DNA of 64,000 bases from a virus. Taxonomy: Duplodnaviria; Caudoviricetes. The stretch's first letter is position 1; every line of letters starts with the position of its first letter. This document shows positions 8,667 through 33,380 of this stretch, piece after piece. Made by a program: the position numbers and the translations under genes. The DNA lies in IMG/VR virus record IMGVR_UViG_3300042451_000960; one strand, 5' to 3'. The notes under the pieces are model-generated. The model was given only the letters and a program-made list of their open reading frames with translations, was not told where the DNA came from and searched no databases.

Positions 8667-11600
8667 TTATAAAGAACCACTTATAAATGCTTCTAAACTA
8701 GAAACTTTTTGTGAAAGTTCTTGTATTGCTTTTACCATAGGTGATATAAATTCATTGTATGTAACAGACCATCCAGCATTTTGTTGTTCTTCATCATACC
8801 ATTGTTGATTGTAAAGAGTACCATCAGAACCTGTTATAGAACCACTTGCTATAATTTCTTCAATAGGTCTTTTATATTCTCTTTCTAATGATTTGATAAA
8901 AGAAGAACCCGTATTCAATCCTTTAAAATCATCAGATGTTTTTCCAAGCGATTCTAAAGCAGTTAATACCTCTTGTGCAATAAATCCATATCTCGGTCTT
9001 TTTTTAGTACTTGATATGAAATTATATTTTACCGGTCTTAATTGTTTAATAAAATCCAAACCTAAATCGGAAGTGTAAATATTTTCTTTTAATTTTAAAT
9101 CAGATAAATTATTAAAATTATCGGCATATATTTCATCCCAAAAAACTCCAGTACCCGAGTTACTACCCATATCTTGAGTTCCATTATGTGGTCCACCAGC
9201 AGTTCCCCAGCGTGTATCGGCGGGGTGTACATCATCTATAAAATGCGCTTGATATATACTTCCGTATTTTGGTCTATACGCTAAATCCAATCTTCCATAG
9301 CCCGGACTTGCATCATTTCCAGAAATGAATATATTTCCTGCTAAATAAAGGCTTCCACGTGAATCTATTGCATAGTTCGAAAATGCACCACCAGCGGCAC
9401 CAAATGCCCAAAATTTAGATTGAGCTCCTTTTGCTTCAAAAATTATATCACTCGAACCAACTGATGTAGAAAGACGTGGAATTTGAACAAACGTTGATGT
9501 ATCATTTGCTATCTGAATACCTCCAGTTGTAACTTCTACTATGTTTGTTGGTATTATAATAGTAAAACTATTAGAATTATAACCAATTCCATTATCAGTT
9601 ACAGCAGTATTAATACCAGAAGTATGTCCATAAAATACTTCAGGTAACTCTGTACCAAAACTATCTACAGATACTGAACTTCCAGCTCTTGCGGATATTT
9701 GAATTGAATATCTAAATTTGTAATTTCCAGCAGAAGGGAAAGTAATAAATCTATCAGTAATTGCTGTAAATCCGCCGGTTGTGTATCCGGTATGAACGCC
9801 CGGTGTTGTATAATTACTATAAATCCAACTTGAACCATTCCACTCCCAATTATCAACACTGGTTGCGCTATAAGATGATACATTTTGTATCCAAACTCTA
9901 GCTATTTGACCCGTAGATTGGTTGACACCTTCTAAATACACATCAGCGCCAACAAACTTAGGACTTGCATATCCATTTTGACTTTCCCCAGGATACGTTC
10001 CAGGATTATTTGGATTATTTGCGTTTGCATAAATGGTTTGTGATGATAAATTATCAATTTGTAAAACACTAAATGTATAAAGATTAGTTAGTGCATAAGT
10101 ACCTGCAGCAGGTATTGAATAATTTGTTGCAGTTTCAAAATTAGAAACATCTGCATATGAATACGGCCCATATTGCGTAGCAAATGTTCCAAATGCCGAT
10201 ACATCAGCTGGTGTTGTCCAATCCGGATATGGTGAACCATTTCCATTTGGTATATCACTTACACTTACGTTTGAACCACCAACATTTGTCAAATAGTTTA
10301 CAGGAGATATGTTTAATTTTTTTTCACCCGCTAAATAAAATCCAAGTTCAGGTACAGTAGGGTTTAAAATAAGTTTTGAACCGGAATCTCGTAAGTTTCC
10401 ACCCAATGCTTGTGATTCAATAATCCAATTTCCAATTCTACCATCGGTAGCTGAAATAGAACCTGTAATAGAGAAATTATTTTCTTCAAATTTAATTTGG
10501 CTACCAATTGGATTACCAAATCTTACTCTACCACTACTATCCATATAAAATCCAGAACCACTATTAAACGTTGCTGCTGTAGCAGAACGTATAATTCCAC
10601 TACCCGTTCCACTTGTCTCAACACCCATAACTAAAGCTCTCGTAATAGTTGCGTCTTGAGCAAGTAAAATATCAGTTGCTACTGAACTAAATTGTGCACC
10701 AAAAGATTCCCAATATGTTGTATTAGTTGGAAGATTACCCGTTGTATTTTGTTTTGTTAAATAATATGCGTTATTATATTTTACAATATCTCTACGAACA
10801 CCTGCTGAAAAAATGTATGCAGTTGCTGCATTATATTCACCCCTATAAACCACACCAGGTCCAGTATCACCAGCTGCTCCCGCTGCTCCTTGTTTGGATT
10901 TTGAAAAAGATTGAACTCTACTTAAAGAAAACAAATCTCCATTTATTTTCTTACCGGATAATGTATAATTAATACTTGCCAAATCAGCTGTCATATTGGA
11001 ATGATTACCAACTACTGCATAGTTACCACCATCGGTTACAGATCCGGCTGTAATATTGGTAACAGATGAGGATACTGCCCATTTACCCGGTGAAGTACCA
11101 ACCCCATCATAATCCAATTGAGTTGCACCTTCATAAATGTATATATCAGTACCACTTCCAGCATAAGATGAAACAGTTCCATCATTTGCTGCTGGTAAAG
11201 TATGAGATTCATTTGTTACTATTACGGTTAATGCATCACTTCCTTCTTTAACCCTTGCTATTGAAACAGTATCAGTTATTGAATCCGCTGTTGCACTAAT
11301 TTCAACCAAAGTATTTGTACCAAAAGAACCCGTTCTTAAATAAACAATATTTCCGCTTGTTGTTGTACTTCCACCCGTTGCAGAATCAAATAATGTTACG
11401 GATGGTGTTGTAGTCCAATTCGTTGTTGCGGAAATATTTTGTTTGTTTGAAGTTAATTCAATATAATTTGGAGAAAGCGAACCACTCTTTGTTTCAACAA
11501 ATACTTGAGCAGATGCTTCTAATCTAAGTAACTTAGCTGCTATTGGTGCAATAGTCCAAGGACCGGAACCAGGATAACCTGTTCCTACATTTGTATTATT

Positions 11601-14600
11601 TGTAGATGTGTGGTTAGAGTTTGCTGTCCATGTATTTCCACCATATGTAACAATATCGTTTGTGTAGTAAACAGTTGCATCAGCCCAAGCTCCCATTAAA
11701 CGTCCTTCGTTTACGCCAGGGGATGATTGTTTTATTGAACCAACAATAGTCAAAGTACCACCATCCCAAAATAATCCCTTACCACTACCACCATATTCTT
11801 TAATTGAAAATCTTCCTGTTGTACCATTGACACCATCTTCGTACATTCCTAAAAATATACCAGGTCTATTAAATCCAATAATACCAGTTCCAGATGTACC
11901 AGATGCGCCGGAAGTTGATGGGTTATATGTTGTACCAGATGTGCCCGCAGTACCTACAGTACCATGCTGACCAATTGAAATATATGGGTCAGGTCTACCA
12001 CCTGCTATTACTATATTAGCAAATTTAGAAGTATTGTTATAAGTACCTACGTTAATTGAATTCTTAACATAAGATTCTTCAAATATAGCAATTTTAGCTG
12101 CTACAAAGAAATCTTGCTCACCCAAATACTGCCAATAATCGTTACTATTACCAACAGCAGGTGGGTATTGATGTCCAATTAATACATATCCACCCGGTGG
12201 TGTTGCTCCAACATAATAATCAGATGTTGTTGGGTTTACATAAGTTGTAGGCCCACTTCCACTTAGTGCTGCAAAATAGTGAGTTGTATTATTACTACCA
12301 GATGGGTCAGGCCAAATAATTGCATCTCTACGATAATTTACTGTTTCATACGAACCAATATAATCTTCATATTCACTATATTGACCTCTCATTACAATAC
12401 CAGGTCCAGTTTCACCTTCAAATTGAACAGAGAATGATTGGGTTTTAAATGCTACTCCCTTTCCATTTTCAAAATCAATTCTATAAACAACAGACCCAAT
12501 TGGATTTGAATCAGCGGTTGTCCAAGATACCAAATCACCAATTACAGCTCTACCAGCAACAATTGGTAAAACACTTTGAGATACCAACCCACCAGCTAAT
12601 CCTAAATAAGCTGATTTTGAATGTATAGTTACTTGATATTCTCCCAACGAACCAATTTCATTTGAAAATATATCTAAAGTTTGTGGACCAAATGGGTTAG
12701 CATGAGTTAATTGTGTTATTCCTTTTGTTGCATTTATAGTTGTTCCAGTTCCACCCAATTCAACTTCACCAGAAACTCTATAAATAATAGAAACGTTATC
12801 ATTAGTTAAAGTTGCGTTATATGATGGAACACCTTGTTGTAAACCTGTAAGTGTTAATGATGCTTGTGCTGTAATTGGTTGTGTTGAACTTATGTTACCA
12901 TCTCTAACTTGTACTACCCATAGTGCGGTTTCGCCTGGTGCAACAGAGTCACCAGAAGCTATTGTTGCTATGTTTGATGCTTGTATTGGTGTATATGCTA
13001 CATTATCTTTTAAAAATTGATAATAAGCTGAACCGGTAAAGTTGGTAACTGTTGCCGTTAATTCTATATCTCCCGCTGGTGATACTACAACACCATCACT
13101 ATCAAAACTTACAAAATTTGAAGTTGCTGATAATGTTACTCCTCTTGAATCCGCGCCATCTAATAGTTTAGTAAAGTTTTGAACTTTATTTATTACCGAT
13201 GAAGTATATTGATGACCAGGTCCTAGTGAATATGGATATGCAATTATATTATATGTTACACTACCTGTTCTTGGTCCTTGATTAAAATTGTGAAATCTTA
13301 TTAATGCCCTATCACCATTAAATGATGCTGTTAATGATGCCGTAAATACATTAGTTTGTTCAAAATTATCAACATAGAATGTACCAGGTTGATAAGACCA
13401 AGAATTATAAAGTAAATATTTATTTCCTTCTTTAATTCGTAATGTAGTATTAGATGATGCATAATTTGATACAACTCCGTTTTCATCAGCATTTAAAACA
13501 ACGGATTCGGGTGTTAATGATACTTCTAATTGTGGTGTACCATCTAATATTTTTGTAAATTGTTGAACTACACTTCCCGTATAAATTGATGATGTATAAA
13601 ATGGTTGTATTTCAAGATTATATGTAACACTACCACTTAAATTGTTCATACCACTAGCTGCGCCTATAAACAAAGAACCTGTGTAATTTGCATTAAAGCC
13701 CGGTGGTATTGGGTTTATAATTTTACCAGGTATAATATTAGAACCAGTTATACTGCCTGAAACAATAAAGAAAGTTCCTTCACCTTTACTTGCTGTAAAA
13801 TTAAGATACCTAGAGCCTTGTTTTAATCTTATTTGTGTTACTGATGATGAATAACTATTTACAAAACCTTCTGCTGTTGCATTAAGAGATACCAATGCAG
13901 GAGTTACTTCAAAAATAATTGTTTCATCTCCCGGCTTACCTTCTGGTATAATAGTGAATGTTTTATCTAAACTTATAGATGCAGAAGTCCAAGGTTCAGT
14001 ATATGTAAATGTAATTGTTAAATTTTTACTTTGCTTATTAGATTGCCCTATATATGAATTTAGTGGTAATGAATCAATTACATTTTTATTTTCATCTCTT
14101 GCTATTACGGAAATAGTTTTATCTGCACTTTGTGTTGTATAATAAAACCAATATTCAGGAACATAATCTTTATTAATTGACATCGAAGGGAATACCCTAA
14201 ACGATGCTGTTATTGCGTTGGTTGTTCCTCTTTCAAAAAATGAAGCCGTAGCAAATGCAAATGATGGTCTAAAATTTATTTCATTTCTTGGATTTATAGC
14301 AAATGTATCAGCATTAAATACTATACTTGGTGTATCCAAACCATCTTGCAAATCTTCTAAAATAATAGATGCTAAAACCGAACCAGATACTGCATATGCC
14401 GGTGAAGCTGCTGCAGATGATGATGGCATTAAATAAATAATTCTCCTAAAATCTATTGAATCTCTATCAAATACTGCATTATAGTTAATTTCTTTAGAAC
14501 CCAACGAACCAGTTATTATTCCTCTGATATATTTGCTTGATGATGCCAATGATAAAGGAATAAATTTTTCAGGTTCAGTTGCTGGATTAAGAGATGCTGA

Positions 14601-16781
14601 TAAAACGTGTAGTTGTATATTTCCCCAACCATCTTGAGCACCACTATAAAGATTAATTTCATTAATACCATCAATTCTTACCGCTTGAATTTCTAAAGAT
14701 GCAGTACTACTATTTCTAATTTGAGTTCCTCTATAAGGTCTAATGAAATGATTAACTCCACCCTTACCATCTAAAACTCTTGTAATAATAATTGAATCAG
14801 TTACACCTTCACATTCACCAGTAAATTCTATATATTGAACTAATTTATCTGCTCTGGAACCTGTAAAGTTTTCTACGGTTAATCTTACTGTATCCAAATT
14901 CCTATCCAATAATAAACCTGGATATTGTGAACCAACTCCAACATAATCGGTATTGAACAATTCGTTATTTGCAAAATCAAAAGAACGTGATGTAAAATTT
15001 ACCGAACCCGTTAGATAGTTTTTAATTACATCAATATAAACTGTTGTTGGTGGTAACGGGTTGCCATTACCAGAACCAGAATCAAATTGAAAATAAAGCG
15101 ATGATGGTACTAATTGTAAATCTTTATTAATTACATTTAAATTACCGCCATCAAATGTTTTTGTTTCTTCTACCAAAACAGGGATATAATTGTTATTTAT
15201 ATCGTAAAATTGAAACCTAAAATCAAATGTTTCTCTAGGTAAAGTCCTTGGTATTGGTTGTATGAATGTTATTTCATCAGGACTAAAAGATGTTTCTTGA
15301 GATGCTCTTAAACTAACATCGGATATATACCAATCACTACCCTCAGTTTCAAAATATAATCTAGTATTATTAATATCTTCTGCTTTAAAGTTAGCTACTA
15401 CATTTGATTTTTGTAACACACTACTATCAGAAGTTATCGTTACGATTGGCTGCTCAATTTGAATTGTACTAGTTACGTTATTGTATGTACTTAGTCTAGA
15501 ACCGCTCAAATATGCTTTTATATAATGGTTAGCACTTCCTACCGCATCTTTTCTAGTATTAAAAGTAAGAGTATATTCAGTATTTTCTCTTACATCTAAA
15601 GATTTTGTTGTTGCAAACCTTTCTCCAGAAATTAAACTGTTTAACTTAACAGAGTTATATAAGAAATTTTGATTAAATGATGTTACTAAATTATTTGAAG
15701 AAGTTATCCAATAATTTTTATAATTAAATTGGTCAAAACTACCGTAATATTCTTCATTTTTTGAATTTGATTCTAAATCTTTAAGTAATTCATTTGATTC
15801 TAATTGTATTTCTTGTACAAATTGATAATCCGATAAATCTGATTGTGACCTTCTATATATTTTTACTCTTGCACAATCTCCTACAAATGTTGTTAAATCG
15901 GTTATATTAATTTTAGCGAATGAACCAGTTAATGCTGTTTTTAAATTATCATTACCTTCAATGTAATTAAATGTTACAGAATAAGGTTCTGCTATTAATG
16001 TTTTTACAATACCATTTTCATTATATGGAGTTGATACTGTTAAATCTCTATCACTAACAACATCATCCGCTAATAAACTTACACCCTTATTTGTGAGTGT
16101 GATATAATTGTTTGTAACAGAACCTGTCCAAAATGAATCATTTAGGGTTGTTAAAAGATATGATGTTGGTAATGTATAACCAGACACACTTTCACCTTCC
16201 GCTGGGATTTGTGGAATACCATTTATAAAACCCGTTTGGGTGACCTGCCTAACGATGTTTGAAAATATTGGTTTAACTATTTCATTTATTGTTACTTCCG
16301 GTCTTCTATAAAATCTTACCTTATCTTCATTAGAAATTAATTTATTAACTTTAAAAGTTTTTTCCCATTTTACATTATATACACTTTTCCACTCATCAGG
16401 AACATCCCTTACTACACCACCCTCATCTAAATAAGTTTTTAACTCCCCTAAAACAGTTATTTTTGCTTCACCAATAGGAGTATCTTCGTAAACATAAACG
16501 GCTACAAGTTTTGATACACCTTCATAATATTCGGGCACACCATTGCCAGGCTCATAATAAATCGGGTCACCATTTACATCTAATATTTGAATCTTTATTT
16601 CAGTTGATTCTTTAAGGTGTTGAGACCCTTCTATTAGGAATCCATTTTTACCACCAGTAAACGTATCCTTAAACTCAGTTATTCTAAAATAAGTTGAATT
16701 TGGATTCGTATCAACTAAAAAAGTTTGAAAAGATGTTAATGGTTGAGTTAAAACTTCTGCGTATTTTTTTATTCTCGCCAT
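8667..16781 (-). CDS. Large tail fibre / receptor-binding protein with C-terminal peptidase S74 intramolecular chaperone
   Basis: 2704 aa; repeated ~100-aa beta modules and CBM5/12-like segments; C-terminal SDLKLKENI...LDFIKQLRPVKYNF...GFIAQEV...VKAIQEL. Confidence 0.85.
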   Translation of the reverse strand: MARIKKYAEVLTQPLTSFQTFLVDTNPNSTYFRITEFKDTFTGGKNGFLIEGSQHLKESTEIKIQILDVNGDPIYYEPGNGVPEYYEGVSKLVAVYVYEDTPIGEAKITVLGELKTYLDEGGVVRDVPDEWKSVYNVKWEKTFKVNKLISNEDKVRFYRRPEVTINEIVKPIFSNIVRQVTQTGFINGIPQIPAEGESVSGYTLPTSYLLTTLNDSFWTGSVTNNYITLTNKGVSLLADDVVSDRDLTVSTPYNENGIVKTLIAEPYSVTFNYIEGNDNLKTALTGSFAKINITDLTTFVGDCARVKIYRRSQSDLSDYQFVQEIQLESNELLKDLESNSKNEEYYGSFDQFNYKNYWITSSNNLVTSFNQNFLYNSVKLNSLISGERFATTKSLDVRENTEYTLTFNTRKDAVGSANHYIKAYLSGSRLSTYNNVTSTIQIEQPIVTITSDSSVLQKSNVVANFKAEDINNTRLYFETEGSDWYISDVSLRASQETSFSPDEITFIQPIPRTLPRETFDFRFQFYDINNNYIPVLVEETKTFDGGNLNVINKDLQLVPSSLYFQFDSGSGNGNPLPPTTVYIDVIKNYLTGSVNFTSRSFDFANNELFNTDYVGVGSQYPGLLLDRNLDTVRLTVENFTGSRADKLVQYIEFTGECEGVTDSIIITRVLDGKGGVNHFIRPYRGTQIRNSSTASLEIQAVRIDGINEINLYSGAQDGWGNIQLHVLSASLNPATEPEKFIPLSLASSSKYIRGIITGSLGSKEINYNAVFDRDSIDFRRIIYLMPSSSAAASPAYAVSGSVLASIILEDLQDGLDTPSIVFNADTFAINPRNEINFRPSFAFATASFFERGTTNAITASFRVFPSMSINKDYVPEYWFYYTTQSADKTISVIARDENKNVIDSLPLNSYIGQSNKQSKNLTITFTYTEPWTSASISLDKTFTIIPEGKPGDETIIFEVTPALVSLNATAEGFVNSYSSSVTQIRLKQGSRYLNFTASKGEGTFFIVSGSITGSNIIPGKIINPIPPGFNANYTGSLFIGAASGMNNLSGSVTYNLEIQPFYTSSIYTGSVVQQFTKILDGTPQLEVSLTPESVVLNADENGVVSNYASSNTTLRIKEGNKYLLYNSWSYQPGTFYVDNFEQTNVFTASLTASFNGDRALIRFHNFNQGPRTGSVTYNIIAYPYSLGPGHQYTSSVINKVQNFTKLLDGADSRGVTLSATSNFVSFDSDGVVVSPAGDIELTATVTNFTGSAYYQFLKDNVAYTPIQASNIATIASGDSVAPGETALWVVQVRDGNISSTQPITAQASLTLTGLQQGVPSYNATLTNDNVSIIYRVSGEVELGGTGTTINATKGITQLTHANPFGPQTLDIFSNEIGSLGEYQVTIHSKSAYLGLAGGLVSQSVLPIVAGRAVIGDLVSWTTADSNPIGSVVYRIDFENGKGVAFKTQSFSVQFEGETGPGIVMRGQYSEYEDYIGSYETVNYRRDAIIWPDPSGSNNTTHYFAALSGSGPTTYVNPTTSDYYVGATPPGGYVLIGHQYPPAVGNSNDYWQYLGEQDFFVAAKIAIFEESYVKNSINVGTYNNTSKFANIVIAGGRPDPYISIGQHGTVGTAGTSGTTYNPSTSGASGTSGTGIIGFNRPGIFLGMYEDGVNGTTGRFSIKEYGGSGKGLFWDGGTLTIVGSIKQSSPGVNEGRLMGAWADATVYYTNDIVTYGGNTWTANSNHTSTNNTNVGTGYPGSGPWTIAPIAAKLLRLEASAQVFVETKSGSLSPNYIELTSNKQNISATTNWTTTPSVTLFDSATGGSTTTSGNIVYLRTGSFGTNTLVEISATADSITDTVSIARVKEGSDALTVIVTNESHTLPAANDGTVSSYAGSGTDIYIYEGATQLDYDGVGTSPGKWAVSSSVTNITAGSVTDGGNYAVVGNHSNMTADLASINYTLSGKKINGDLFSLSRVQSFSKSKQGAAGAAGDTGPGVVYRGEYNAATAYIFSAGVRRDIVKYNNAYYLTKQNTTGNLPTNTTYWESFGAQFSSVATDILLAQDATITRALVMGVETSGTGSGIIRSATAATFNSGSGFYMDSSGRVRFGNPIGSQIKFEENNFSITGSISATDGRIGNWIIESQALGGNLRDSGSKLILNPTVPELGFYLAGEKKLNISPVNYLTNVGGSNVSVSDIPNGNGSPYPDWTTPADVSAFGTFATQYGPYSYADVSNFETATNYSIPAAGTYALTNLYTFSVLQIDNLSSQTIYANANNPNNPGTYPGESQNGYASPKFVGADVYLEGVNQSTGQIARVWIQNVSSYSATSVDNWEWNGSSWIYSNYTTPGVHTGYTTGGFTAITDRFITFPSAGNYKFRYSIQISARAGSSVSVDSFGTELPEVFYGHTSGINTAVTDNGIGYNSNSFTIIIPTNIVEVTTGGIQIANDTSTFVQIPRLSTSVGSSDIIFEAKGAQSKFWAFGAAGGAFSNYAIDSRGSLYLAGNIFISGNDASPGYGRLDLAYRPKYGSIYQAHFIDDVHPADTRWGTAGGPHNGTQDMGSNSGTGVFWDEIYADNFNNLSDLKLKENIYTSDLGLDFIKQLRPVKYNFISSTKKRPRYGFIAQEVLTALESLGKTSDDFKGLNTGSSFIKSLEREYKRPIEEIIASGSITGSDGTLYNQQWYDEEQQNAGWSVTYNEFISPMVKAIQELSQKVSSLEAFISGSL

Positions 16782-21399: not shown

Positions 21400-21807
21400 T
21401 TAATATATATCCTTACGAAAGAATTTTCCCATAAGGTTTTCATTTATTGATTGTGGGTCTGACAGTACATCTAATTTGAACTGCCACCAAACTTCCCAAT
21501 ATGTAAGTGATTTTTTACTAAAACAGAATTGAATGATTTCTCTTTCAAAATTCCCACCTCTACCTTCTTTTACTTCAGATTTAATCCATTCATTTGATGA
21601 GTAGTATTTTTCCCAATCAGAAGCCTTACGAACTACTCTCTTACGAACCTTTCCTTTTAGCGGTTTTAAACGGCGGGTTGATGTAAGTGATTTTTTACCA
21701 ATATAGAATTTACCAGTTGGTTTGTGTATAATTTTATAGACAAAACCAACCGCACCCTCTGGGGTGTTTTCTTCTGTAACCAAATTTCCATTAAATTTCC
21801 AAGACAT
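21400..21807 (-). CDS. GIY-YIG family nuclease-like protein
   Basis: GFVYKIIHKPTGKFYIGKK...YYSSN...F.REII...E. Confidence 0.75.
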   Translation of the reverse strand: MSWKFNGNLVTEENTPEGAVGFVYKIIHKPTGKFYIGKKSLTSTRRLKPLKGKVRKRVVRKASDWEKYYSSNEWIKSEVKEGRGGNFEREIIQFCFSKKSLTYWEVWWQFKLDVLSDPQSINENLMGKFFRKDIY

Positions 21808-23054: not shown

Positions 23055-24296
23055 TTAGAATGATAATTTAACTTTAATTAGTACTTCTTTATCAAATGAT
23101 TTTGGAATTGGTTGAGAAGTTTTTGCAACTGCAATCAATTCGTTTGCATCGTTTAATAAACCTACAGTTGTAATGTAAGTTTGAGGGTCCGATTCAAATG
23201 TACCTTCTACAAAGAAACCATCTGCATCAACATAAGTTGGGTTGTTAGAATAGTTAAACTCTCTATTTGTTGCTCTTACGAAGAAATGTTGTGTTGATAC
23301 ATTTTCAGTTCTTCTTGCTTCAAAATCTTTACCATTCTTTATTGCGTAATAGATTCTTTTATGATTGTATTGCTCAGCTGCAGTTGAAATACTACCACTA
23401 GCATTTCCAACATTATCAAATGTTTCAGTCCATACGTTACCAACAACAGAACCAATCGCTTTAGCGTTAAGAACAATAATACCTCTATCAGGATAGAAAG
23501 TACCATATCCTTCATTGGTTGCTGGTTTACCTACTGCTAAATCAGTAGCTGTATCTGCTTCGTTTTTAATGGTTGCGTCTGATTGTGTTCCTAAATTAAG
23601 TGAACCAGAAACTACTTTAAATTCTCTACCACTTAATCCTAAATCATCACCAAATTTCTTTCCACTATTATCAATGAAAGTAAATAAACCATTAGAACCA
23701 GATAGTTTTAATGACCAGTTACCAGCATCCATTTTTTCTCTATAACGTCCTCTAGCTACATTAATTGCATAGATTCCATTACAATCTGTTGAAATACCAG
23801 ATGAATTTTCAAATGAAAATTTGGTATCCGTTGGGTCTAACAACATAGAACGATATTGTGCATATGTTGCTTTTGAAGATAATAATGCATTATCATCAGT
23901 TGCTAAATCTACCGAACCACTTCCATCAACATGTCCGTATGCAACTGCATACTGTATTTCTGCTGATGAATCCGTTGTTGGACTTGTACTATAAACATTA
24001 TAATAATATTGTCCGCTTGTAGCTGCTACTTGCGTAGATGAAGTGAAGAATGAAATTAAAGAACCCGAATCATTAGTCCACAATCCAGTTGTTACAACTT
24101 CTACTTTTGCGTTTACCTTGTCAAAATCGCCAAATCTTTTATAGATACCAGTTGTTACGCCAGAACCAACAGCAATTTGTTGACCTGCTGGTAAAACAGA
24201 ATTTAAAATTGAAACGAGTTGATTCGAATCAATTGTGCCCGTATTAGCTAAATCTCTAATTTGGGCGGTTATATTAGGGTCATTAATTAGTGCCAT
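23055..24296 (-). CDS. Baseplate/tail structural protein
   Basis: C-terminal EFNYSNNPTY...YITTVGLLNDANELIAVAKTSQPIPK, like tail-collar/baseplate proteins; lies in the structural cluster. Confidence 0.7.
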   Translation of the reverse strand: MALINDPNITAQIRDLANTGTIDSNQLVSILNSVLPAGQQIAVGSGVTTGIYKRFGDFDKVNAKVEVVTTGLWTNDSGSLISFFTSSTQVAATSGQYYYNVYSTSPTTDSSAEIQYAVAYGHVDGSGSVDLATDDNALLSSKATYAQYRSMLLDPTDTKFSFENSSGISTDCNGIYAINVARGRYREKMDAGNWSLKLSGSNGLFTFIDNSGKKFGDDLGLSGREFKVVSGSLNLGTQSDATIKNEADTATDLAVGKPATNEGYGTFYPDRGIIVLNAKAIGSVVGNVWTETFDNVGNASGSISTAAEQYNHKRIYYAIKNGKDFEARRTENVSTQHFFVRATNREFNYSNNPTYVDADGFFVEGTFESDPQTYITTVGLLNDANELIAVAKTSQPIPKSFDKEVLIKVKLSF

Positions 24297-24992: not shown

Positions 24993-27900
24993 CTAATCAA
25001 CTTCCAATATTGGTTCACCACTACCTCTACCAGTCTTAGCAACTCTAAGAATGTTAGGATTAGTTGTAAATGTTTCTACCGGAGATAACCCATCAGGTGT
25101 AGTTGTTGCAGTTTGTTGAGAACCTTTCCAATAAGTACGTTGCATTCCCTCTGATAAATTATTTGTATAACGATAGTGTGTTGGGAAATATCCATTTAAA
25201 GCTGTTACTTGTACTACATTATTTCCTACCGCAATACTTCCACTAAAAGGAAGTTGAGAAATTCTATATTTATATTTTGTAACTGAAACGTTTTGGTAAA
25301 CTACTTGGTCACCCAATTGAGCTCCATTTACAGGCCATCCGGCAACTTGAGTTGAAACATTTTCTACATAACTTTCTTTAACTAAGAATACACTTTGTCT
25401 ACTTCCAGTCAATTGAAAGTTCCCAAATACCCCATCAAAAGGTCTTACCAATGCATTACCATCTTTTGCATATAAACCAAATCCAGAATTTGCCAAAGAA
25501 TCCTTTTCCATACCAATTTGAACAGATTTAAAAGAATCGGCTTGACCTGTAAGTGTTGCTCCATTTGGTGCTTCTATTTCAACATCATAAAAAGGAGCAG
25601 TTGCTTCTATTATTTCTGTTGTATCATATTCAATAAGTGTATCGTAATTTGGATTGGTTACATCTAATACACATAAATTTTCATTTTCAATTAATGCATC
25701 ATAGTTTGGTAATTCTCCAACTAAATTTGTAGTATCATTTGTAACAATGTTCATTTCTTCAACATTATAAGTTGATTCTATTTCATTGTTTTCATCTATG
25801 TTTATAATTGTATCGTAATCACCTCTAACAGAAGTTGGCTTATCCCATCTTACTTTACTTCTTTCTAAAAAGTGAGGTTCAATAAGTAAACCTTTTGAAA
25901 TTTTAGCTCTAGCCGGTGCCAAATCTGCTAAAACATCAAACAAAGATTTATCAACATACTTTACCAATTGAATATATTCATAAATGTTTCTATCCAATCT
26001 TTCAAAATAGTAATTTCTAAGAGTTTCCAATTCTTTATAAGAATCTTTATATTCATCCGCAGGATTACCTATGTAATTATCAATATTAAAATCTCCAAAT
26101 GTTTTAAGAATATCCATATTCAACTCTTTCATAGGAGAGAAGAATAATCCCAATCTATTGGAATCTATTGGAGCTTGGTCAAATGATTTTTTAGTTGCTC
26201 TTACTTTATATGAAAGGTCAGTAACTAAAGAAGCAGATTCAAATCTAATTTTATTTGAATAACTTAATCCTGTTGAAGGAACAGTAGCTGTTACTGTTCT
26301 ATCATATGGAATATATTGATAAGGATATGAAGATGCTGAATAGAATTTACTTGCCGTTGCGTAATTTTCTGCGTATAATGTACTAATTGATACATTTTTA
26401 ATACTATTATCAGCGGTTCTATCTTTTGGATATTCAAAATCTAAACGGAACATTAAATCTGATGTAGATGCTGTGTATGAATTACCATTTGTTGCATCTG
26501 GAAATAATGTGTGGTTTTCAAACTTTGAAGTTTGTAATGGTACTTTCCATAATCTAACTTCATCCAATGCTCCAGTATAATCATTTCCTATTGTAAGTAC
26601 AGACCCACTCTCCCAAGGACCAGGCTCAGAAAGAAGTGACATACTTACATATGTTGTAATTCTTGTACCATTTGAAGTTGCAAATAATACTTCATATAAA
26701 CTCCCACCACCATATTGATGTCTATTTACTAAAATATTACTGTAGTGCTCTGTTGATAATGGGAAATCCAAACTTCCCGTTCCAGTTTCTGGCGGTAAAA
26801 CATATATTGTATATGTTGGGTCATTATAATAAGATGCTGTAAAGTATGGTTGAGCCGTTACACTACTACCTACACTAAATCCAAGTTTTACAAATGAGCC
26901 CGTTGTTTGTTCTAAAGTAATTGAACATTCTCCAAACGTAGCTAATGTAGTATTTTTTACAACATCAGGTTTTATTCTAAATTCTACAGCGTCAGGATAA
27001 TGAATTGTTGAAGGTATAACTTTCCAAGGTATTTGAACTAAAGAACCAGACTTCATTTGTATTGCCGCAGTCCTATCATCAAATGTAAATTTAGTAGAAC
27101 CACCCTTAGTTGGGTCTTGAGGTCCACCAAACTCCATTATTGTCAACATAGATTGAGGTACGCCATAACAAGCCATAATAGCTTTCATAGCTCTACCAGT
27201 TCCCTTATGCTTTAATAGATAAGGTAAGTTATTTAATATTCTTCTCCAAACTTCATTATTAGCATCTTCTAAAGGTCTATCATATTTTTTAGTACCATCT
27301 TTATATTGTCCAAATACATACTCCCAAAGGAATTGTGAATCAAAAGCTCGTTTACCTTCCCAACCTAAAGATTGTAAAAGATGATAAACCATATTATTAG
27401 CTACACCATCAAATTGTTTATTTTCAACTAACTTTGTTTTATTTATACCATTTATATAAGACCAAATAACATCAAAGTGCTGACCAATCATATCTAAGAA
27501 AAGAATAAAATCTTCATTGTTATAATCTTCTCTAATATGTTCTGGTAAATTATTTACTAAATAGTTTACATTGTACTTATCATATTCTGCGGATAAATCA
27601 ATTGCTGTGTCATACCAATTTTCTACTGTTGGATTTGTTGATGATAGTAATATTCCATTTACTTTTGGATATGATAACGATGATGAAACGTCTGTATATA
27701 AAAAGTTTTCAAGTCCATCAAATCCTCTTTTAACTTCAGATACTTTTTGTTGAACTTTATTTGCTTCGTTTACTACGTTAATAGATGATGTCCATGCACT
27801 ACCAGAAGATAATTCATTATACTTTGATTCATAAGTTTCTATCAATTGAACTTTGTAGAAGAAGTTTTTAAATCTTTCTTCTGCAGAACCAAAATGTGAA

Positions 27901-30029
27901 AAGTTTTCAAAGGAATAAACTGAACCACTTGTGTATTGAATATTTAAATTTGTGGTATCAATATTATTTGATGCTGCATATCGTAATACTAAATCGTTTG
28001 ATGTGGCAGAACCACTAGCTACCAACTCATCAAATACTTTAAATCCAATTCCATTATCAGGAAGTAAATTAAAATTAGGCCCTTTTAATGGTGGGCAATA
28101 TGCACTTTCTTTTCCAACAATTGTTACTGTTTCAATTATTGGATTTGATTGAATTTTTGAAATCCAAACTTGCTGATTTGGTTGGATTGCTGTTGGTATT
28201 GGTTCATATAATTTTACAATTAAAGAATCTAAACTACCTGTCCAAGTTGTAATAACTTTATTATCACCATCTCCTAAATGTAAAAGATGCGTTAAATACT
28301 TTGATGTTTCTTGTTCAAATACAGTATCATCAAATTGAGAAGTAAATCCTTCTAAAATTCTATTTAAAACTAAATTTCTTGGTAATATTGTTTTACCAGT
28401 TTCTAATTTTATTGTTATAAATTCAGCTTTTCCCTCAACTACTTCATTACCACTTGAATTATATGGTATTAATTTAAGGGTAAGTGATATTATATTTTCA
28501 TTTGTATTTTTAGATTGAGTTGAACTTATATTTTCATTTGCTAAGTTTAATAATTGTTGAAAATTAAGATTTACTTTACCTACTTTATTAACTTGTGTAT
28601 ATAATCCGTTCTCACCATTAAAAATTCTTACATAATCAGTATTAATACTTTCCCAACTTATTTGAAAATCTACATTTGTGCCAACATTATCCGCACCTTT
28701 TATTATAGATGGATATACAATATTTCTAATATCCGGTACACCAACATAAACCGCATCAATTACTTTTACAGTTACATCTTTTGAATCACCATCACCAGCA
28801 ATATTTGATGGCACAATTACTACTCTATAATTTCCAACTCGTTCAAAAGCAGCTGATGGTATTACAATAACAGCTGTTTTTTCGCTTTCTAGTATTTCAA
28901 ACTTATATGAGTTAGTACCAACATATGCAGTTACATATGATACATTTCTAATAATTTCAATATAAACTGGAACTCCAGAATTTGAGTTTATATTATATTC
29001 TCTTGCTTCATTATTTGTTACATTAATTAAAGGCGATGCTACAAATCCTTTATTTATTTCTATTGATTTTATATCAATAGAATAGTCACCATCCAATTTA
29101 ATAGAAGTTTTTAAACTCTCATCTTGCCCTGCTTCTAAAGGTGCAATTCTGGTAGTTGTGGATGCTATGTTTATATTTGTAACTCTAAATGATAATGTAT
29201 CTGCTGTTTGAATTGATATTGTATCGCCGGCGTAAAATTCTAAAACGTTACTACCATTTTTAAGAGATATAGTATCAATATTATTTTTTATAATTTCTAC
29301 CGAATTATCAGGACCATCTAAAGTTATAGGTAACTGACTTATTGGTAATGGTTCTCGAACAATTACAGAAGGTACTAATTCAAATGTTATATTTTGAGTT
29401 TGGTCAGATAATTCATATGGAAAACTTTGAATAATATCATCAACATAATATTCAATTTTTATCCTATAAAATTTTTCATTAGAATAAACGTTTTGAAATG
29501 GAGCTGCTATTTTTTGTAAATCATAATAATTTGAATATCCATATAGCGAAGAACCTAAACCTAAATCAATATTAATAGTACTCTTTTCAAAATAAGAATT
29601 AAAATATGGATTTTGAATTACAGAAAATACATATTTTTGAGTTGTTTTAAATCCATCTTTGGATATTGTAATCGTTTTATATCCCGTAGGGCTTTTTAAT
29701 ATTGAATTAACATCTATATTGATTGCGTCTGGTGTAATTCTAAAAGTATTTTCACCATCAATTAATATATTTGCAGATTCAATATTTGATTTTACATAAA
29801 TTATGTAGTTTATATTGTCAACTGCAGTTCCGTAATTTGGTAGATTTATATCTTTTGGTATTGTAGGTTCTACTGGCGTTTCTATACCAGACTTCACACC
29901 CACTGGCATACCAAATGTTGGTTTAGTTGATATATCTGTATTAGCATCATAAATGACACTGCCACCACCGCCACCTTCAATAGTACCGGTTAATGTTAAA
30001 TCAATTGTATTTTCTGAAAACACTGCCAT
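24993..30029 (-). CDS. Large baseplate wedge-like structural protein with a probable LamG-like domain
   Basis: 1678 aa; NLPEHIRED...FLDMIGQHFDVIW...ILNNLPYLLKHKGT (wedge / P2 gpI-like); VEFRIKP...YTGALDEVRLW (LamG-like). Confidence 0.7.
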   Translation of the reverse strand: MAVFSENTIDLTLTGTIEGGGGGSVIYDANTDISTKPTFGMPVGVKSGIETPVEPTIPKDINLPNYGTAVDNINYIIYVKSNIESANILIDGENTFRITPDAINIDVNSILKSPTGYKTITISKDGFKTTQKYVFSVIQNPYFNSYFEKSTINIDLGLGSSLYGYSNYYDLQKIAAPFQNVYSNEKFYRIKIEYYVDDIIQSFPYELSDQTQNITFELVPSVIVREPLPISQLPITLDGPDNSVEIIKNNIDTISLKNGSNVLEFYAGDTISIQTADTLSFRVTNINIASTTTRIAPLEAGQDESLKTSIKLDGDYSIDIKSIEINKGFVASPLINVTNNEAREYNINSNSGVPVYIEIIRNVSYVTAYVGTNSYKFEILESEKTAVIVIPSAAFERVGNYRVVIVPSNIAGDGDSKDVTVKVIDAVYVGVPDIRNIVYPSIIKGADNVGTNVDFQISWESINTDYVRIFNGENGLYTQVNKVGKVNLNFQQLLNLANENISSTQSKNTNENIISLTLKLIPYNSSGNEVVEGKAEFITIKLETGKTILPRNLVLNRILEGFTSQFDDTVFEQETSKYLTHLLHLGDGDNKVITTWTGSLDSLIVKLYEPIPTAIQPNQQVWISKIQSNPIIETVTIVGKESAYCPPLKGPNFNLLPDNGIGFKVFDELVASGSATSNDLVLRYAASNNIDTTNLNIQYTSGSVYSFENFSHFGSAEERFKNFFYKVQLIETYESKYNELSSGSAWTSSINVVNEANKVQQKVSEVKRGFDGLENFLYTDVSSSLSYPKVNGILLSSTNPTVENWYDTAIDLSAEYDKYNVNYLVNNLPEHIREDYNNEDFILFLDMIGQHFDVIWSYINGINKTKLVENKQFDGVANNMVYHLLQSLGWEGKRAFDSQFLWEYVFGQYKDGTKKYDRPLEDANNEVWRRILNNLPYLLKHKGTGRAMKAIMACYGVPQSMLTIMEFGGPQDPTKGGSTKFTFDDRTAAIQMKSGSLVQIPWKVIPSTIHYPDAVEFRIKPDVVKNTTLATFGECSITLEQTTGSFVKLGFSVGSSVTAQPYFTASYYNDPTYTIYVLPPETGTGSLDFPLSTEHYSNILVNRHQYGGGSLYEVLFATSNGTRITTYVSMSLLSEPGPWESGSVLTIGNDYTGALDEVRLWKVPLQTSKFENHTLFPDATNGNSYTASTSDLMFRLDFEYPKDRTADNSIKNVSISTLYAENYATASKFYSASSYPYQYIPYDRTVTATVPSTGLSYSNKIRFESASLVTDLSYKVRATKKSFDQAPIDSNRLGLFFSPMKELNMDILKTFGDFNIDNYIGNPADEYKDSYKELETLRNYYFERLDRNIYEYIQLVKYVDKSLFDVLADLAPARAKISKGLLIEPHFLERSKVRWDKPTSVRGDYDTIINIDENNEIESTYNVEEMNIVTNDTTNLVGELPNYDALIENENLCVLDVTNPNYDTLIEYDTTEIIEATAPFYDVEIEAPNGATLTGQADSFKSVQIGMEKDSLANSGFGLYAKDGNALVRPFDGVFGNFQLTGSRQSVFLVKESYVENVSTQVAGWPVNGAQLGDQVVYQNVSVTKYKYRISQLPFSGSIAVGNNVVQVTALNGYFPTHYRYTNNLSEGMQRTYWKGSQQTATTTPDGLSPVETFTTNPNILRVAKTGRGSGEPILEVD

Positions 30030-31293: not shown

Positions 31294-32307
31294 TTATCCC
31301 CATTTATCTCCACGCATTTTTTGTAATGCAACTGGAATGTTAACTGTTCCCTTTGATGATTTAACAATTATATTACCCTTATATTCTTTATCTCCAATAA
31401 ATCCAAATCCATTTTTAGGAGCATAATCTTTAATTTTACCATCAATAGTTTTAAGAGTTATATTTTTTTCTTCATTTGATGCTAATGTTAAGGATGGTAT
31501 AGAATTAAATATACCAGATATTTCACCATCTTGTGCAAACGTAATAGTAACGCTATCTTTTGTGAAATTTTTAATATTAATTTCAGGACCATTAATCCAA
31601 GTTCCTCTGCCATTATCCTTTGCTCTAGCTCTAAATGTTAAATCCGCATATTGTGCTTCTGCTTTATTTACAACTTTAACTGCAAAATCATCTGTTACTT
31701 TTGCCCCTTCGTCTTTTGATGCTTGCTTACCAAATAATTGTTCTCTTAATGTTGCGTTTTCAGATTCTAATGCTCTAGTTAAAGCAGTAAGTGAAACTCT
31801 TTGTATTGCTTCAGCTGTTGCTTTTTGTATTGCATTTTGTAAATCAACTACAGAAGATTGAACTTTATTTGTAGATTGAAACGATTGATTTTGAGAAGAT
31901 GCAACTACTAAATCTTTTGCATCCAAATCTACTCGTAAACTCTGAGAAATTATTTCTAATTCTTTTACTTTACCAGTTAAATCTAAAATATTTCCATTTA
32001 ATCGTTCAACTTCTGCTGTTAAATCAATTACAGATTGTGTTACTGGATTATATATACTTCTTAATACTGTATCAGGTAGTGGTGGTGCTTCTATTGGAAT
32101 TAATTCTACAATATTTGTATCTATTGATTTAATTAATTCTACTTTATTATATTTTGGTTTAGTTAGTTTACCAAATATAATACCATCATCATCATTTGAA
32201 GCACTAAAAATATGTACGCCGTATTCGTTTTTAGATTTAATACTCAACGAACCGGATACAATTATGTCTTGAACTTTAACTTCGTTTTTAAGTCCTGCTT
32301 TTACCAT
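31294..32307 (-). CDS. Hypothetical structural protein (coiled coil + Ig-like C-terminus)
   Basis: 337-aa ORF in the operon; central heptad-rich segment. Confidence 0.7.
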   Translation of the reverse strand: MVKAGLKNEVKVQDIIVSGSLSIKSKNEYGVHIFSASNDDDGIIFGKLTKPKYNKVELIKSIDTNIVELIPIEAPPLPDTVLRSIYNPVTQSVIDLTAEVERLNGNILDLTGKVKELEIISQSLRVDLDAKDLVVASSQNQSFQSTNKVQSSVVDLQNAIQKATAEAIQRVSLTALTRALESENATLREQLFGKQASKDEGAKVTDDFAVKVVNKAEAQYADLTFRARAKDNGRGTWINGPEINIKNFTKDSVTITFAQDGEISGIFNSIPSLTLASNEEKNITLKTIDGKIKDYAPKNGFGFIGDKEYKGNIIVKSSKGTVNIPVALQKMRGDKWG

Positions 32308-32309: not shown

Positions 32310-33380
32310 TTAATTAATTACTTCAAAAGTTAAATCATCATCAAAATACTGAATATCTCCTTCTCCAAAATCAACTTTAAATTCCATCTTATAGACTCTT
32401 CCTATTTCCCAATTGGAAAGATTTAATTTAAAATAATTTCCACTACTATTACAACTTATTTTTGAATAGTCACCAAATGGTACAATTACATCATCTGATG
32501 CGAAGTCTTTAATTTGATAATATGACGATGTTGGTAGATATTTAATATCGTTGTATGTGAATGTATTACTAAAAGTTTTTACAGGATAAAGTTCTCTACC
32601 TAAAACTTCTATTTTAGGTGTTGTATTTACTTTATATTCTTTTTTGAAATTTCTTGCTACAACTTTTAAATTTGTTGAAGTAATTGCCGATAATGAGCCA
32701 GTTGAAAAAGCTTGGTCGTTCCAACCAATTCTTAATTTTGGTTGATATATAGTATGCGTTTCTTTACTAAATAATTTTACAATACCATAATCTTCCGTAT
32801 CAGTTTCTACAGAGTTTGAGTGTTTTAATATAATACCATCATTTGGAATAGAACCACTTATCCATGCTCTAATCATAGATTTAACATCCATTTGAATATC
32901 TGCTGTTTGGTAATTAAAATACTGAGATGATTCTGAAGTGGTGTAATACACACCACCCAATCCATTATAACTTCCAGTAGAACCCAAAGCATATACATTA
33001 TTAGGTAACCATCTATCTTTTGAATCACCTTCTCTATAATTCCAAGTCACACCTTCTGTTGTAATATCATCGAATCTAGTTCCTTTACCCATTTGCCAAC
33101 TTCCAGAAATTGGATGTGCGTATATTGTATATTCTAAAGGAATTTCTTCACTTTCAGTTTCTCTCAAAACTAAAGTTGCTTCTCCTAAATTCATACTACC
33201 ATTTGAAATGGATGATGATAAGTGACTTATATCAAATTTTAATAAAGCTCTTGAAACATCTTTTATTGTTCCATAATAAACTTTAGTCACTTCTAATACT
33301 TCATCCAATCCAGTATTTTGGTTTGGTTGTTGTAGATAAACCGTTGCATCTTTTGATGCTGTTATAAAATAGTATGCCAT
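32310..33380 (-). CDS. DNRLRE/CBM96-like domain structural protein
   Basis: ASKDATVY...NTGLDEVLEV...SRALLKFDIS...NDGIILK...FSKE...PKLRIGW. Confidence 0.7.
   Translation of the reverse strand: MAYYFITASKDATVYLQQPNQNTGLDEVLEVTKVYYGTIKDVSRALLKFDISHLSSSISNGSMNLGEATLVLRETESEEIPLEYTIYAHPISGSWQMGKGTRFDDITTEGVTWNYREGDSKDRWLPNNVYALGSTGSYNGLGGVYYTTSESSQYFNYQTADIQMDVKSMIRAWISGSIPNDGIILKHSNSVETDTEDYGIVKLFSKETHTIYQPKLRIGWNDQAFSTGSLSAITSTNLKVVARNFKKEYKVNTTPKIEVLGRELYPVKTFSNTFTYNDIKYLPTSSYYQIKDFASDDVIVPFGDYSKISCNSSGNYFKLNLSNWEIGRVYKMEFKVDFGEGDIQYFDDDLTFEVIN

What the first reader, a model, noticed from the sequence alone, without database searches (positions are those of the whole stretch)
8667..33380. [ST]-G-S tripeptide strongly enriched in tail/baseplate proteins: candidate modification sequon
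Seen (hand counts): about 27 [ST]GS in the 2704-aa fibre, about 10 in the 1678-aa wedge protein, 5 in 23055..24296 and 4 in 32310..33380, typically hydrophobic-[ST]GS-hydrophobic (LTGSF, VSGSI, YTGSL). Related TAS/TSS/SAS variants also recur. I found none in SbcCD (1048 aa), ThyA or the TonB receptor (825 aa). A rough compositional expectation for the fibre is only about 4. The fibre also carries a GTSGTT..TSGASGTSGTG stretch. Inference: these are acceptor sites for the adjacent Ser-directed glycosyltransferase, so the virion exterior may be densely glycosylated.
Basis: partly seen in the sequence, partly recalled or inferred. Interest (0 to 1): 0.75.

Follow-up and report, generated by a model that had tools for sequence, protein, structure and literature searches.

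The report
Ser-Gly-Ser tag on phage tails
The outer baseplate and fibre proteins of this lake phage carry the tripeptide Ser/Thr-Gly-Ser about six times too often, at turns between beta-strands. It is probably an attachment tag for a phage-made sugar coat, but the neighbouring TibC-type enzyme cannot be its general cause, because related phages without that enzyme carry the tag just as densely.

Summary
Observation confirmed. All four hand counts reproduce (27, 10, 5, 4). Six fibre and outer-baseplate proteins hold 49 [ST]GS against 8.8 expected (P 6e-21). The other 43 ORFs hold 5 against 10.3. SGS and TGS are the two most enriched of all 8000 tripeptides. Same-composition controls ([ST]GT, G[ST]S, S[ST]G) are flat, and the next residue is hydrophobic in 67% of sites.

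The sites are independent occurrences. They are not copies of one domain and not a DNA motif.

The trait is on or off per lineage. Homologous baseplates are rich in this clade, Mel-JY01, immuto and many metagenomic phages. They are bare in T4, RM378 and two metagenomic lineages, where other residues fill the same turns. The fold therefore does not need the motif.

Interpretation partly supported. The adjacent gene is a true TibC/Aah-family Ser O-heptosyltransferase, and the family is named for strand-loop-strand acceptors, which fits the motif's context. However, one complete genome (immuto) and three 93-100% complete genomes, none with TibC, are equally rich. Four of the 27 fibre sites also lie in the C-terminal chaperone that is normally cleaved off.

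Best reading: a selected surface-turn tag, probably an O-glycosylation acceptor. TibC is one possible user in this phage. No chemistry exists.

The scan met this motif before in at least seven other aquatic phage genomes.

The parts
8667..16781 (-). 2704-aa tail fibre with 27 [ST]GS sites. It has an N-terminal anchor (about 1-200, 0 sites), a beta-rich shaft (201-1300, 15 sites vs 1.65 expected), a short collagen-like G-T-x stretch (about 1606-1633), a weak CBM_5_12 match at 1698-1729 (22.2 bits, below the 26.2 cut-off), and a Peptidase_S74 intramolecular chaperone from 2560 (4 sites vs 0.24).
24993..30029 (-). 1678-aa outer baseplate protein in the gp7-like position, downstream of the gp6-like wedge. 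It has 10 sites against 1.6 expected, mostly at positions not shared with homologs in Mel-JY01 or immuto.
23055..24296 (-). 413-aa baseplate protein of a very large uncharacterised family (1759 representatives). It has 5 sites, at residues 77, 126, 199, 230 and 300. The AlphaFold model (pLDDT 90) places them at strand ends, a hairpin tip and loops.
32310..33380 (-). 356-aa baseplate protein with a weak CBM96-like N-terminus. It has 4 sites against 0.5 expected.
22033..22974 (-). 313-aa baseplate or fibre-adaptor protein with 2 sites here. Relatives have a median of 3, and the group is 11x enriched.
31294..32307 (-). 337-aa baseplate protein with 1 site (residue 18). That site is present in all 56 relatives compared.
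5010..6167 (-). 385-aa TibC/Aah-family (BAHT) O-heptosyltransferase homolog. The catalytic Asp, T226/K230/W305 equivalents and the four iron-finger Cys are conserved. R286 aligns to Val and P300 to Gly.
   Evidence: residue roles from PMC4358343
6158..8338 (-). 726-aa GT1 (GT-B) plus Methyltransf_24 protein that overlaps the TibC start. In Mel-JY01 the GT1 and TibC domains lie in one 1234-aa frame.
4621..5010 (-). 129-aa nucleotidyltransferase. Its best match is RfaE domain II, the heptose-1-phosphate adenylyltransferase (E 9e-26, below the equivalog cut-off).

Best explanation
[ST]-G-S followed by a hydrophobic residue is a short tag that natural selection places at turns between beta-strands. 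It occurs in the outward-facing baseplate and fibre proteins of a very large group of aquatic T4-like ('Far-T4') phages.

Its most likely job is to be the acceptor or recognition site for O-glycosylation. Phage-encoded soluble glycosyltransferases would act in the host cytoplasm, before or during tail assembly, so that the distal tail carries a glycan coat.

In this phage the TibC-type heptosyltransferase cassette (adenylyltransferase, TibC, GT1-methyltransferase) is a plausible user of these sites, above all on the fibre next to it. It did not create the motif and is not needed for it. Other glycosyltransferases must serve in TibC-less relatives and may serve here too.

Shown: the enrichment, its specificity, the independence of sites, the turn location in one protein, the on/off distribution across lineages, and that the fold can do without the motif.

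Inferred: that the tag is modified, that the modification is a sugar, and which enzyme does it.
For: 1. Specificity. There are 49 sites against 8.8 expected, and the permuted words G[ST]S and S[ST]G and the Thr variant [ST]GT are flat. Position +1 is 67% hydrophobic.
2. Restriction. The excess is confined to peripheral baseplate and fibre proteins. TerL, SbcCD, the gp6-like and gp25-like proteins and the GTs are at or below expectation, and in a relative's 133-kb contig so are the large unannotated ORFs downstream of TerL.
3. Independence. With the motif masked, site flanks are no more alike than random windows (mean score 19.7 vs 19.5-20.0). The fibre has no internal BLAST repeats.
4. Gain at different positions. 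In the wedge family, sites lie mostly in different alignment columns in the window, Mel-JY01 and immuto.
5. Genome-level on/off trait.
   - Rich: window clade, Mel-JY01, immuto, the P0049 contig (11/0.7, 14/1.5, 9/0.9, 6/0.6), 11 marine contigs, and G021-G028.
   - Bare: T4 (8 vs about 13 over 23 virion proteins), RM378, largely the 484-kb phage, and the P0098 and P0007 contigs, whose wedges have 0 sites in 1435 and 1406 aa.
6. Not required by the fold. In poor lineages the same turns read E-G-S, D-K-D, N-E-A or G-N-G-T.
7. Location. In the pLDDT-90 model of the 413-aa protein the sites sit at a hairpin tip (199-201), at strand ends (79, 230-232) and in loops (126-128, 300-302).
8. Candidate enzymes. 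A BAHT equivalog named for strand-loop-strand acceptors lies next to the fibre. BAHTs glycosylate Ser in the cytoplasm and accept short peptides (PMC4358343).
9. Shared transferases. The two complete motif-rich genomes share a conserved GT trio. The one member I searched for, the GT436 type, is absent from the three complete motif-poor genomes.
Against: - No chemical evidence of any modification exists for any of these phages.
- Exposure was judged from secondary structure in one protein only. No coordinates were available for solvent accessibility.
- Four fibre sites (17x local excess) lie in the S74 chaperone that is normally cleaved off, which fits a folding or assembly role as well as, or better than, a surface coat.
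- At one ancient site (window residue 230) 23 of 115 homologs have SGT, so Ser is not absolute there.
- No single enzyme tracks the motif. TibC is absent from rich genomes. The GT436-type gene was not found in window-clade contigs, although these are fragments. Its link with rich lineages is confounded by shared ancestry.
- Any-GT presence does not discriminate: RM378 and the 484-kb phage also carry GT1 genes.
Confidence: 0.45

Rival explanations
1. The sites are acceptors for the adjacent TibC-like heptosyltransferase, which puts heptose on the Ser of [ST]GS in this phage. GT1-MT then extends and methylates the sugar.
For: - TibC equivalog: 292 bits on TIGR04414, and E 5e-53 to PDB 4RAP, with the catalytic Asp and iron finger intact.
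- The gene next to it on the other side from GT1-MT is RfaE-II-like.
- The cassette abuts the fibre, which has the most sites.
- The same fibre-then-cassette order holds in Mel-JY01, where GT1 and TibC are fused.
- TibC is present in 6 of 7 long clade contigs.
- The family's acceptor geometry is strand-loop-strand, and known sites S-G-G-A-V and S-A-A-V resemble S-G-S-V (PMC4358343).
Against: - Equal enrichment occurs in four complete or near-complete TibC-less genomes.
- BAHTs are reported to modify Ser and not Thr, yet position 1 is Thr in 45% of sites.
- R286, a sugar-binding residue, aligns to Val, and P300 to Gly, so the donor may differ.
- This genome reportedly has about a dozen further GT-like genes (AI note e1-5391934, not checked).
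- An earlier follow-up on the cassette favoured collagen-like Ser-rich stretches as targets (e1-5391963).
Confidence: 0.2
2. A structural or assembly motif with no covalent modification. This would be a preferred turn (small-Gly-small, then a beta-strand) that co-evolves with a lineage-specific folding helper, trimerisation register or inter-subunit contact.
For: - Sites are at turns and strand ends.
- Some sites are ancient and conserved across very distant homologs: window residue 126 has SGS in 81 of 115, and residue 230 has SGS or SGT in 89 of 115.
- SGT is tolerated at one site.
- There is a strong excess inside the cleaved intramolecular chaperone, which acts only in folding.
- No enzyme tracks the motif perfectly.
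Against: - Homologous folds do without it entirely: T4, P0098, P0007.
- Permuted words of the same small residues are not enriched.
- Sites are gained at different positions in different lineages.
- Position 3 is Ser-specific overall ([ST]GT flat).
- No candidate helper protein was identified.
Confidence: 0.25
3. A tag for something other than a sugar. Options are another modification (phosphorylation, acylation, ADP-ribosylation), a docking site for a decoration or lectin-like protein, or direct contact with a host surface component.
For: The same selection signature as for a sequon. The window also encodes lectin, cohesin and dockerin-type proteins, according to an earlier AI note (e1-5391993, not checked).
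Against: No kinase, acyltransferase or decoration gene was linked to the motif here. Glycosyltransferase islands are the prominent tailoring genes in all the rich genomes examined.
Confidence: 0.08
4. An artefact of composition, codon bias, a DNA motif or repeated domains.
For: The target proteins are richer in S, T and G than the enzymes. GGT and ACG codons are somewhat over-used at the sites.
Against: - Per-protein shuffles give z 5-10.
- Same-composition permuted words are flat.
- Ser uses both codon families.
- Flanks are not homologous and there are no internal repeats.
- The excess is reproduced in hundreds of relatives.
Confidence: 0.02

Closest known systems
Bacterial autotransporter heptosyltransferases (BAHT: TibC/TibA, Aah/AIDA-I)
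   Same: The window encodes a family member that passes the TIGR04414 equivalog cut-off. BAHTs are soluble cytoplasmic enzymes that add many sugars to Ser in short loops between beta-strands of a fibrous surface protein, and the substrate gene lies next to the enzyme gene.
   Different: - The substrate here would be phage tail proteins, not a 19-residue-repeat beta-helix autotransporter.
- The word differs: [ST]GS-hydrophobic against S-G-G-A-V and S-A-A-V.
- Thr is frequent at position 1.
- The R286 equivalent is not conserved.
- The motif is equally dense in relatives with no BAHT, so it cannot be defined by this enzyme.
Mycobacteriophage virion glycosylation (Freeman et al. 2023, Cell Host Microbe; known to me through citations in PMC12619734 and PMC12801897)
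   Same: Phage-encoded glycosyltransferases O-glycosylate virion proteins inside the host cell, giving a glycan coat.
   Different: There the glycans sit on C-terminal tails of capsid and tail-tube subunits, with no short internal sequon. Here a defined tripeptide is scattered over baseplate and fibre proteins of Gram-negative and cyanobacterial phages, and no chemistry exists.
Short glycosylation sequons: the cytoplasmic N-glycosyltransferase word N-x-S/T (HMW1C/NGT) and the Bacteroidota O-glycosylation word D-(S/T)-(A/I/L/V/M/T) (my own knowledge, not tested here)
   Same: A three-residue word ending before a hydrophobic residue, over-represented in the substrate proteins, and recognised on exposed turns.
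   Different: The word is different. The Bacteroidota system acts in the periplasm on exported host proteins, whereas tail proteins fold in the cytoplasm. No enzyme has been assigned here.

Membership tests
BAHT / TIGR04414 (enzyme encoded at 5010-6167) | Full-length similarity above the curated family cut-off | tested here: met
   TIGR04414 scores 291.7 bits against a cut-off of 200, covering residues 25-383 of 385. phmmer to TibC 4RAP gives E 4.7e-53 over residues 40-377. The Pfam TibC_1st and GT9 models alone fall below their cut-offs.
BAHT / TIGR04414 | Catalytic base Asp-110 and the four iron-finger cysteines (C339, C342, C358, C370) | tested here: met
   In the alignment, LGDSLAWF aligns with TibC LGDLLGWF, and C-x-x-C...WCP...FECT aligns with the TibC cysteines. 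Residue roles are from PMC4358343.
BAHT / TIGR04414 | ADP-heptose-binding residues R286, W305, T226 and K230 | tested here: inconclusive
   T226, K230 and W305 are conserved. R286 aligns to Val and P300 (stereoselectivity) aligns to Gly. The donor sugar may differ, or the local alignment may be shifted.
BAHT / TIGR04414 | Neighbouring substrate is an autotransporter with a beta-helical passenger of 19-residue repeats | tested here: not met
   The neighbour is a 2704-aa phage fibre with no internal repeats and no autotransporter domain.
BAHT acceptor sites (the [ST]GS motif as TibC's sequon) | Acceptor Ser in a short loop between two short beta-strands | tested here: inconclusive
   In the 413-aa protein model (pLDDT 90) the sites are at a hairpin tip, at strand ends and in loops. 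Flanks are hydrophobic overall. Only one protein was modelled and no coordinates were available.
BAHT acceptor sites (the [ST]GS motif as TibC's sequon) | The motif is present where the enzyme is present and absent where it is absent | tested here: not met
   Rich without TibC: immuto (complete), G021, G022 and G023 (93-100% complete). Rich with TibC: the window clade and Mel-JY01.
Protein glycosylation sequon (generic) | A specific word over-represented only in the substrate class | tested here: met
Protein glycosylation sequon (generic) | Co-variation of motif density with a particular transferase across genomes | tested here: inconclusive
   The GT436-type GT is present in eight rich genomes, six of them chosen because they carry it. 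It is absent from three complete poor genomes. It was not found in window-clade fragments, and the link is confounded by shared ancestry.
Protein glycosylation sequon (generic) | Sugar demonstrated on the residue | not testable with these tools
   No glycoproteomic data were found for these phages (literature searches).

The most novel reading that the evidence does not exclude
[ST]-G-S-hydrophobic is a true O-glycosylation sequon used by thousands of aquatic T4-like phages to sugar-coat the distal tail. Whole lineages have switched the system on or off. In this phage a bacterial adhesin-type heptosyltransferase (TibC family) has been recruited to act on phage fibres.
Probability: 0.35. Interest if true: 0.8.

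Novelty: new variant of a known kind. Interest (0 to 1): 0.62.

Why it matters
If the tag is a glycan acceptor, it would be the first defined sequon for virion glycosylation. It would apply to an abundant, globally distributed group of lake and ocean phages: the 413-aa baseplate family alone has 1759 representatives at 50% clustering.

A sugar coat on receptor-binding organs could affect host range, stickiness to particles and polysaccharides, protease resistance and grazing loss, so it bears on phage ecology.

The on/off lineages, and two cultured phages (immuto on Flavobacterium, Mel-JY01 on Microcystis; one without and one with TibC), make the idea directly testable by mass spectrometry.

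It would also extend the BAHT family from bacterial adhesins to phage fibres.

Tried and rejected
- **DNA-level motif:** rejected. Ser uses both codon families, and the word is restricted to one frame and to certain genes.
- **One repeated domain as the source:** rejected. Masked flanks are not alike, and there are no self-BLAST repeats.
- **'Any glycosyltransferase' as the discriminator:** rejected. GT1 genes also occur in RM378 and the 484-kb phage.
- **Window GT1-MT as the shared enzyme:** no homolog in immuto or Mel-JY01, and not significantly similar to GT436 (E 0.11).
- **The 782-aa nucleotidyltransferase (1793-4141) as part of the cassette:** rejected. It is NadR/NMNAT-like and shared with motif-poor phages.
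- **First AlphaFold run with 27 close relatives:** pLDDT 46, discarded.
- **Foldseek against PDB with the good model:** no match.
- **Neighbourhoods of TibC in two megaphages (LR756501, LR756504):** no enriched ORFs. ORF calling under code 11 is patchy there, so this is uninformative.
- **Whole genome of the window:** not held.
- **Several metagenome look-ups:** gave contigs of only 1.5-6 kb.
- **IMG/VR contigs related to the motif-free P0098:** all are motif-rich but only 17-32% complete, so their lack of TibC and GT436 hits says nothing.
- **GT436-type carriers in IMG/VR:** none belongs to the window clade. A by-sequence look-up in earlier notes found none in this genome. Its presence here therefore stays open.
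- **phmmer of the fibre C-terminus against PDB:** nothing. The cleavage site is inferred from the Pfam S74 match and the S-D-L-K-L-K motif.
- **Complex prediction:** not used. An enzyme-substrate pair is a poor case for it.
Full report
**Context.** All genes in the window lie on the minus strand of a low-GC (about 31%) T4-like phage. Reading in the direction of transcription, the order is:
- gp25-like (35429-35857) and gp6-like wedge (33380-35419);
- seven uncharacterised baseplate proteins (33380 down to 22033);
- a SegE-like homing endonuclease, primase and SbcCD;
- a 2704-aa fibre (8667-16781);
- a glycosylation cassette (8338 down to 4621);
- a 134-aa ORF of unknown function, a NadR-like protein, a 227-aa ORF, and TerL.

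No close relative is in GenBank phages. IMG/VR holds hundreds of relatives at 70-80% identity from lake metagenomes.

- The four hand counts reproduce exactly. Per-protein shuffles give z of 5.4 to 9.6.
- Pooled, six proteins hold 49 [ST]GS against 8.8 expected (P 6e-21). The other 43 ORFs hold 5 against 10.3.
- In a scan of all 8000 tripeptides, SGS and TGS rank first and second, then GSL and GSV.
- Words of identical composition (G[ST]S, S[ST]G) and the Thr variant ([ST]GT) are at expectation. The order matters, and position 3 is Ser-specific.
- The residue after the motif is hydrophobic in 67% of sites against 33% background (P 3e-6).
- Ser is encoded by both AGY and TCN codons, which rules out a DNA word.
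- With the motif masked, flanks of different sites are no more alike than random windows. The fibre has no internal BLAST repeats. The sites are therefore independent occurrences, not copies of a domain.

**Persistence and restriction.**
- In about 60-80 IMG/VR relatives the same six orthologous groups are 3.7x to 11x enriched.
- TerL, the cassette enzymes, SbcCD, and two baseplate proteins (orthologs of 24310-24933 and 30046-31287) are at 0-0.5x; primase is at about 1.1x.
- Many sites are present in 90-100% of relatives. Others turn over, including SAS/SGS exchanges.
- In a relative's 133-kb contig only the same five proteins stand out. The large unannotated ORFs downstream of TerL do not.

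**The enzyme next door.**
- The 385-aa protein at 5010-6167 matches solved TibC over its whole length (E 5e-53). The catalytic Asp and the four iron-finger cysteines align (residue roles from PMC4358343).
- It passes the NCBIfam equivalog cut-off for TIGR04414, 'autotransporter strand-loop-strand O-heptosyltransferase' (292 vs 200 bits).
- Three of four sugar-binding residues are kept. R286 aligns to Val and P300 to Gly.
- The next gene is best matched by heptose-1-phosphate adenylyltransferase. The previous gene is a GT1 plus methyltransferase.
- In Microcystis phage Mel-JY01 the GT1 and TibC domains lie in one 1234-aa frame, in the same synteny after a fibre whose N-terminus is homologous to this one.
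TibC modifies Ser only, at N-S-G-G-A-V and T-S-A-A-V, and accepts peptides (PMC4358343).

The 413-aa protein has homologs in four kinds of complete genome.
- Mel-JY01 has TibC (47% identity) and is rich: SGS 33 vs 4.6, TGS 22 vs 3.1.
- Flavobacterium phage immuto has no TibC in three searches, including a local profile with the filters off (best E 0.45). It is just as rich, with the same hydrophobic context: SGS 33 vs 7.3, TGS 28 vs 6.0.
- The 484-kb uncultured phage and RM378 lack TibC and are not enriched.
- T4 is not enriched: 8 against about 13 over 23 virion proteins.
- immuto is not free of glycosyltransferases. It has an 11-kb island with two GT1, two GT2, a methyltransferase, a PglD-like acetyltransferase, two aminotransferases and an epimerase.
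- Six further contigs, three of them 93-100% complete by CheckV, have no TIGR04414 match and are strongly enriched in the same proteins.
- A motif-rich 52-kb contig has no TibC between SbcCD and TerL, where the cassette sits here.

TibC is therefore not required for the motif.

**A lineage-level on/off trait.**
- The 413-aa family has 1759 representatives at 50% clustering. In 114 full-length ones there are 478 sites against 76 expected, with counts from 0 to 11.
- Density in this protein predicts density in its neighbours. In the contig of the 11-site member, the neighbours score 14/1.5, 9/0.9 and 6/0.6. In the contigs of two 0-site members, the 1435-aa and 1406-aa wedge homologs have 0.
- IMG/VR relatives of one 0-site member at about 50% identity are all rich, so that lineage lost the motif.
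- In poor lineages the same turns read E-G-S, D-K-D, N-E-A or G-N-G-T.
- In the wedge family the sites of the window, Mel-JY01 and immuto are mostly in different alignment columns. At about 30% identity the alignment is only approximate.
- Two sites of the 413-aa protein are ancient: residue 126, and residue 230, which is kept even in RM378.

This pattern is what a trans-acting, lineage-specific reader of the motif would produce. It argues against a requirement of the fold.

**Where the sites sit.** With a deep alignment the 413-aa protein models at pLDDT 90.2.
- S199-G200-S201 forms the tip of the hairpin 195-200/203-209.
- 230-232 ends strand 226-232.
- 77-79 leads into a short strand.
- 126-128 and 300-302 are in loops.

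The fold has no match in PDB. No coordinates were available, so exposure is inferred rather than measured.

**A point against 'virion exterior'.** The Pfam S74 match starts at fibre residue 2560, at an S-D-L-K-L-K motif. In characterised S74 fibres the part from this Ser onward is an intramolecular chaperone that is cleaved off (my own knowledge). It holds 4 sites against 0.24 expected.

**Search for a shared enzyme.**
- immuto and Mel-JY01 share a conserved trio directly after a PD-(D/E)XK nuclease gene: a GT1-like protein of 480 aa (split in Mel-JY01), a GT1-like protein of 436/455 aa (43% identity, E 1e-121), and a GT-A of 207/226 aa.
- The 436-aa type is absent from the complete records of the 484-kb phage, RM378, T4 and two TibC+ megaphages.
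- It is very conserved (58-91% identity) in 258 IMG/VR hits.
- It was not found in window-clade contigs, which are fragments (the largest is about 70% complete), nor among the carriers.
- Its association with rich lineages is confounded by common descent, so I treat it only as a candidate.
- Earlier AI notes on other genomes report the same motif with 'a particular pair of sugar-transferase genes'. One note says this genome holds about a dozen more GT-like genes elsewhere. Neither is evidence on its own.

**Verdict.** The best explanation is a selected surface-turn tag, most probably an O-glycosylation acceptor (0.45). The TibC cassette is one plausible user in this phage (0.2 that it is the main one). 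A purely structural or assembly role is the main rival (0.25). I found no published description of such a sequon in phages.

Noticed in passing
L165 / Mel-JY01 PP395634.1 about 5200-8400: In Microcystis phage Mel-JY01 the GT1 domain and the TibC domain lie in one 1234-aa open frame, annotated 'methyltransferase FkbM'. In the window the GT1-MT gene overlaps the TibC start by 10 nt. This looks like a fused or split version of one module.
   Followed up: partly
window 5010-6167 (-): The TibC-like protein keeps D110, T226, K230, W305 and the four Cys. The sugar-binding R286 aligns to Val and the stereoselectivity residue P300 to Gly, so the donor sugar may not be ADP-D,D-heptose.
   Followed up: partly
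window 23055-24296 (-): This is a very large family of baseplate proteins: 1759 representatives at 50% clustering. The model is confident (pLDDT 90) but has no Foldseek match in PDB and no Pfam or PHROG family.
   Followed up: partly
L169 1674-2984 (immuto) and L209-L288: A GT1-like transferase of about 436 aa is 58-91% identical across 258 IMG/VR phage contigs, far more conserved than the structural proteins of the same phages. It always lies near a PD-(D/E)XK (Cas4-like) nuclease gene. Whether its substrate is protein or DNA is unknown.
   Followed up: partly
L168 (immuto MW353176.1 135031-136152 and 146982-149111): In immuto the motif also marks the tail sheath (7 vs 1.3) and a 373-aa protein (12 vs 1.3). 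Several fibres there start with repeated SGSF(S/T)GSFxGDGSxLTG modules.
   Followed up: no
window 8667-16781 (-), fibre residues 1684-2704: The distal 1000 residues of the fibre, including the weak CBM_5_12 match (below cut-off) and the S74 chaperone, have no homolog in the close relative G006, whose fibre aligns only to residues 1-1683. This is a swapped receptor-binding module that is itself motif-rich.
   Followed up: partly
L170, L171 (LR756501.1, LR756504.1): Two uncultured megaphages of 636-735 kb carry TibC homologs (34-40% identity). Long stretches beside them have no ORF of 200 aa or more under code 11, which may mean an alternative genetic code.
   Followed up: no
window 21400-21807 (-): A SegE-type GIY-YIG homing endonuclease (E 6e-26) sits between the primase and the baseplate genes.
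   Followed up: no
window 1793-4141 (-): A 782-aa protein has an NMN-adenylyltransferase-like N-terminus and a DUF5661 domain. Homologs occur in Mel-JY01, the 484-kb phage and (in part) immuto. It looks NAD-related and not part of the sugar cassette.
   Followed up: partly
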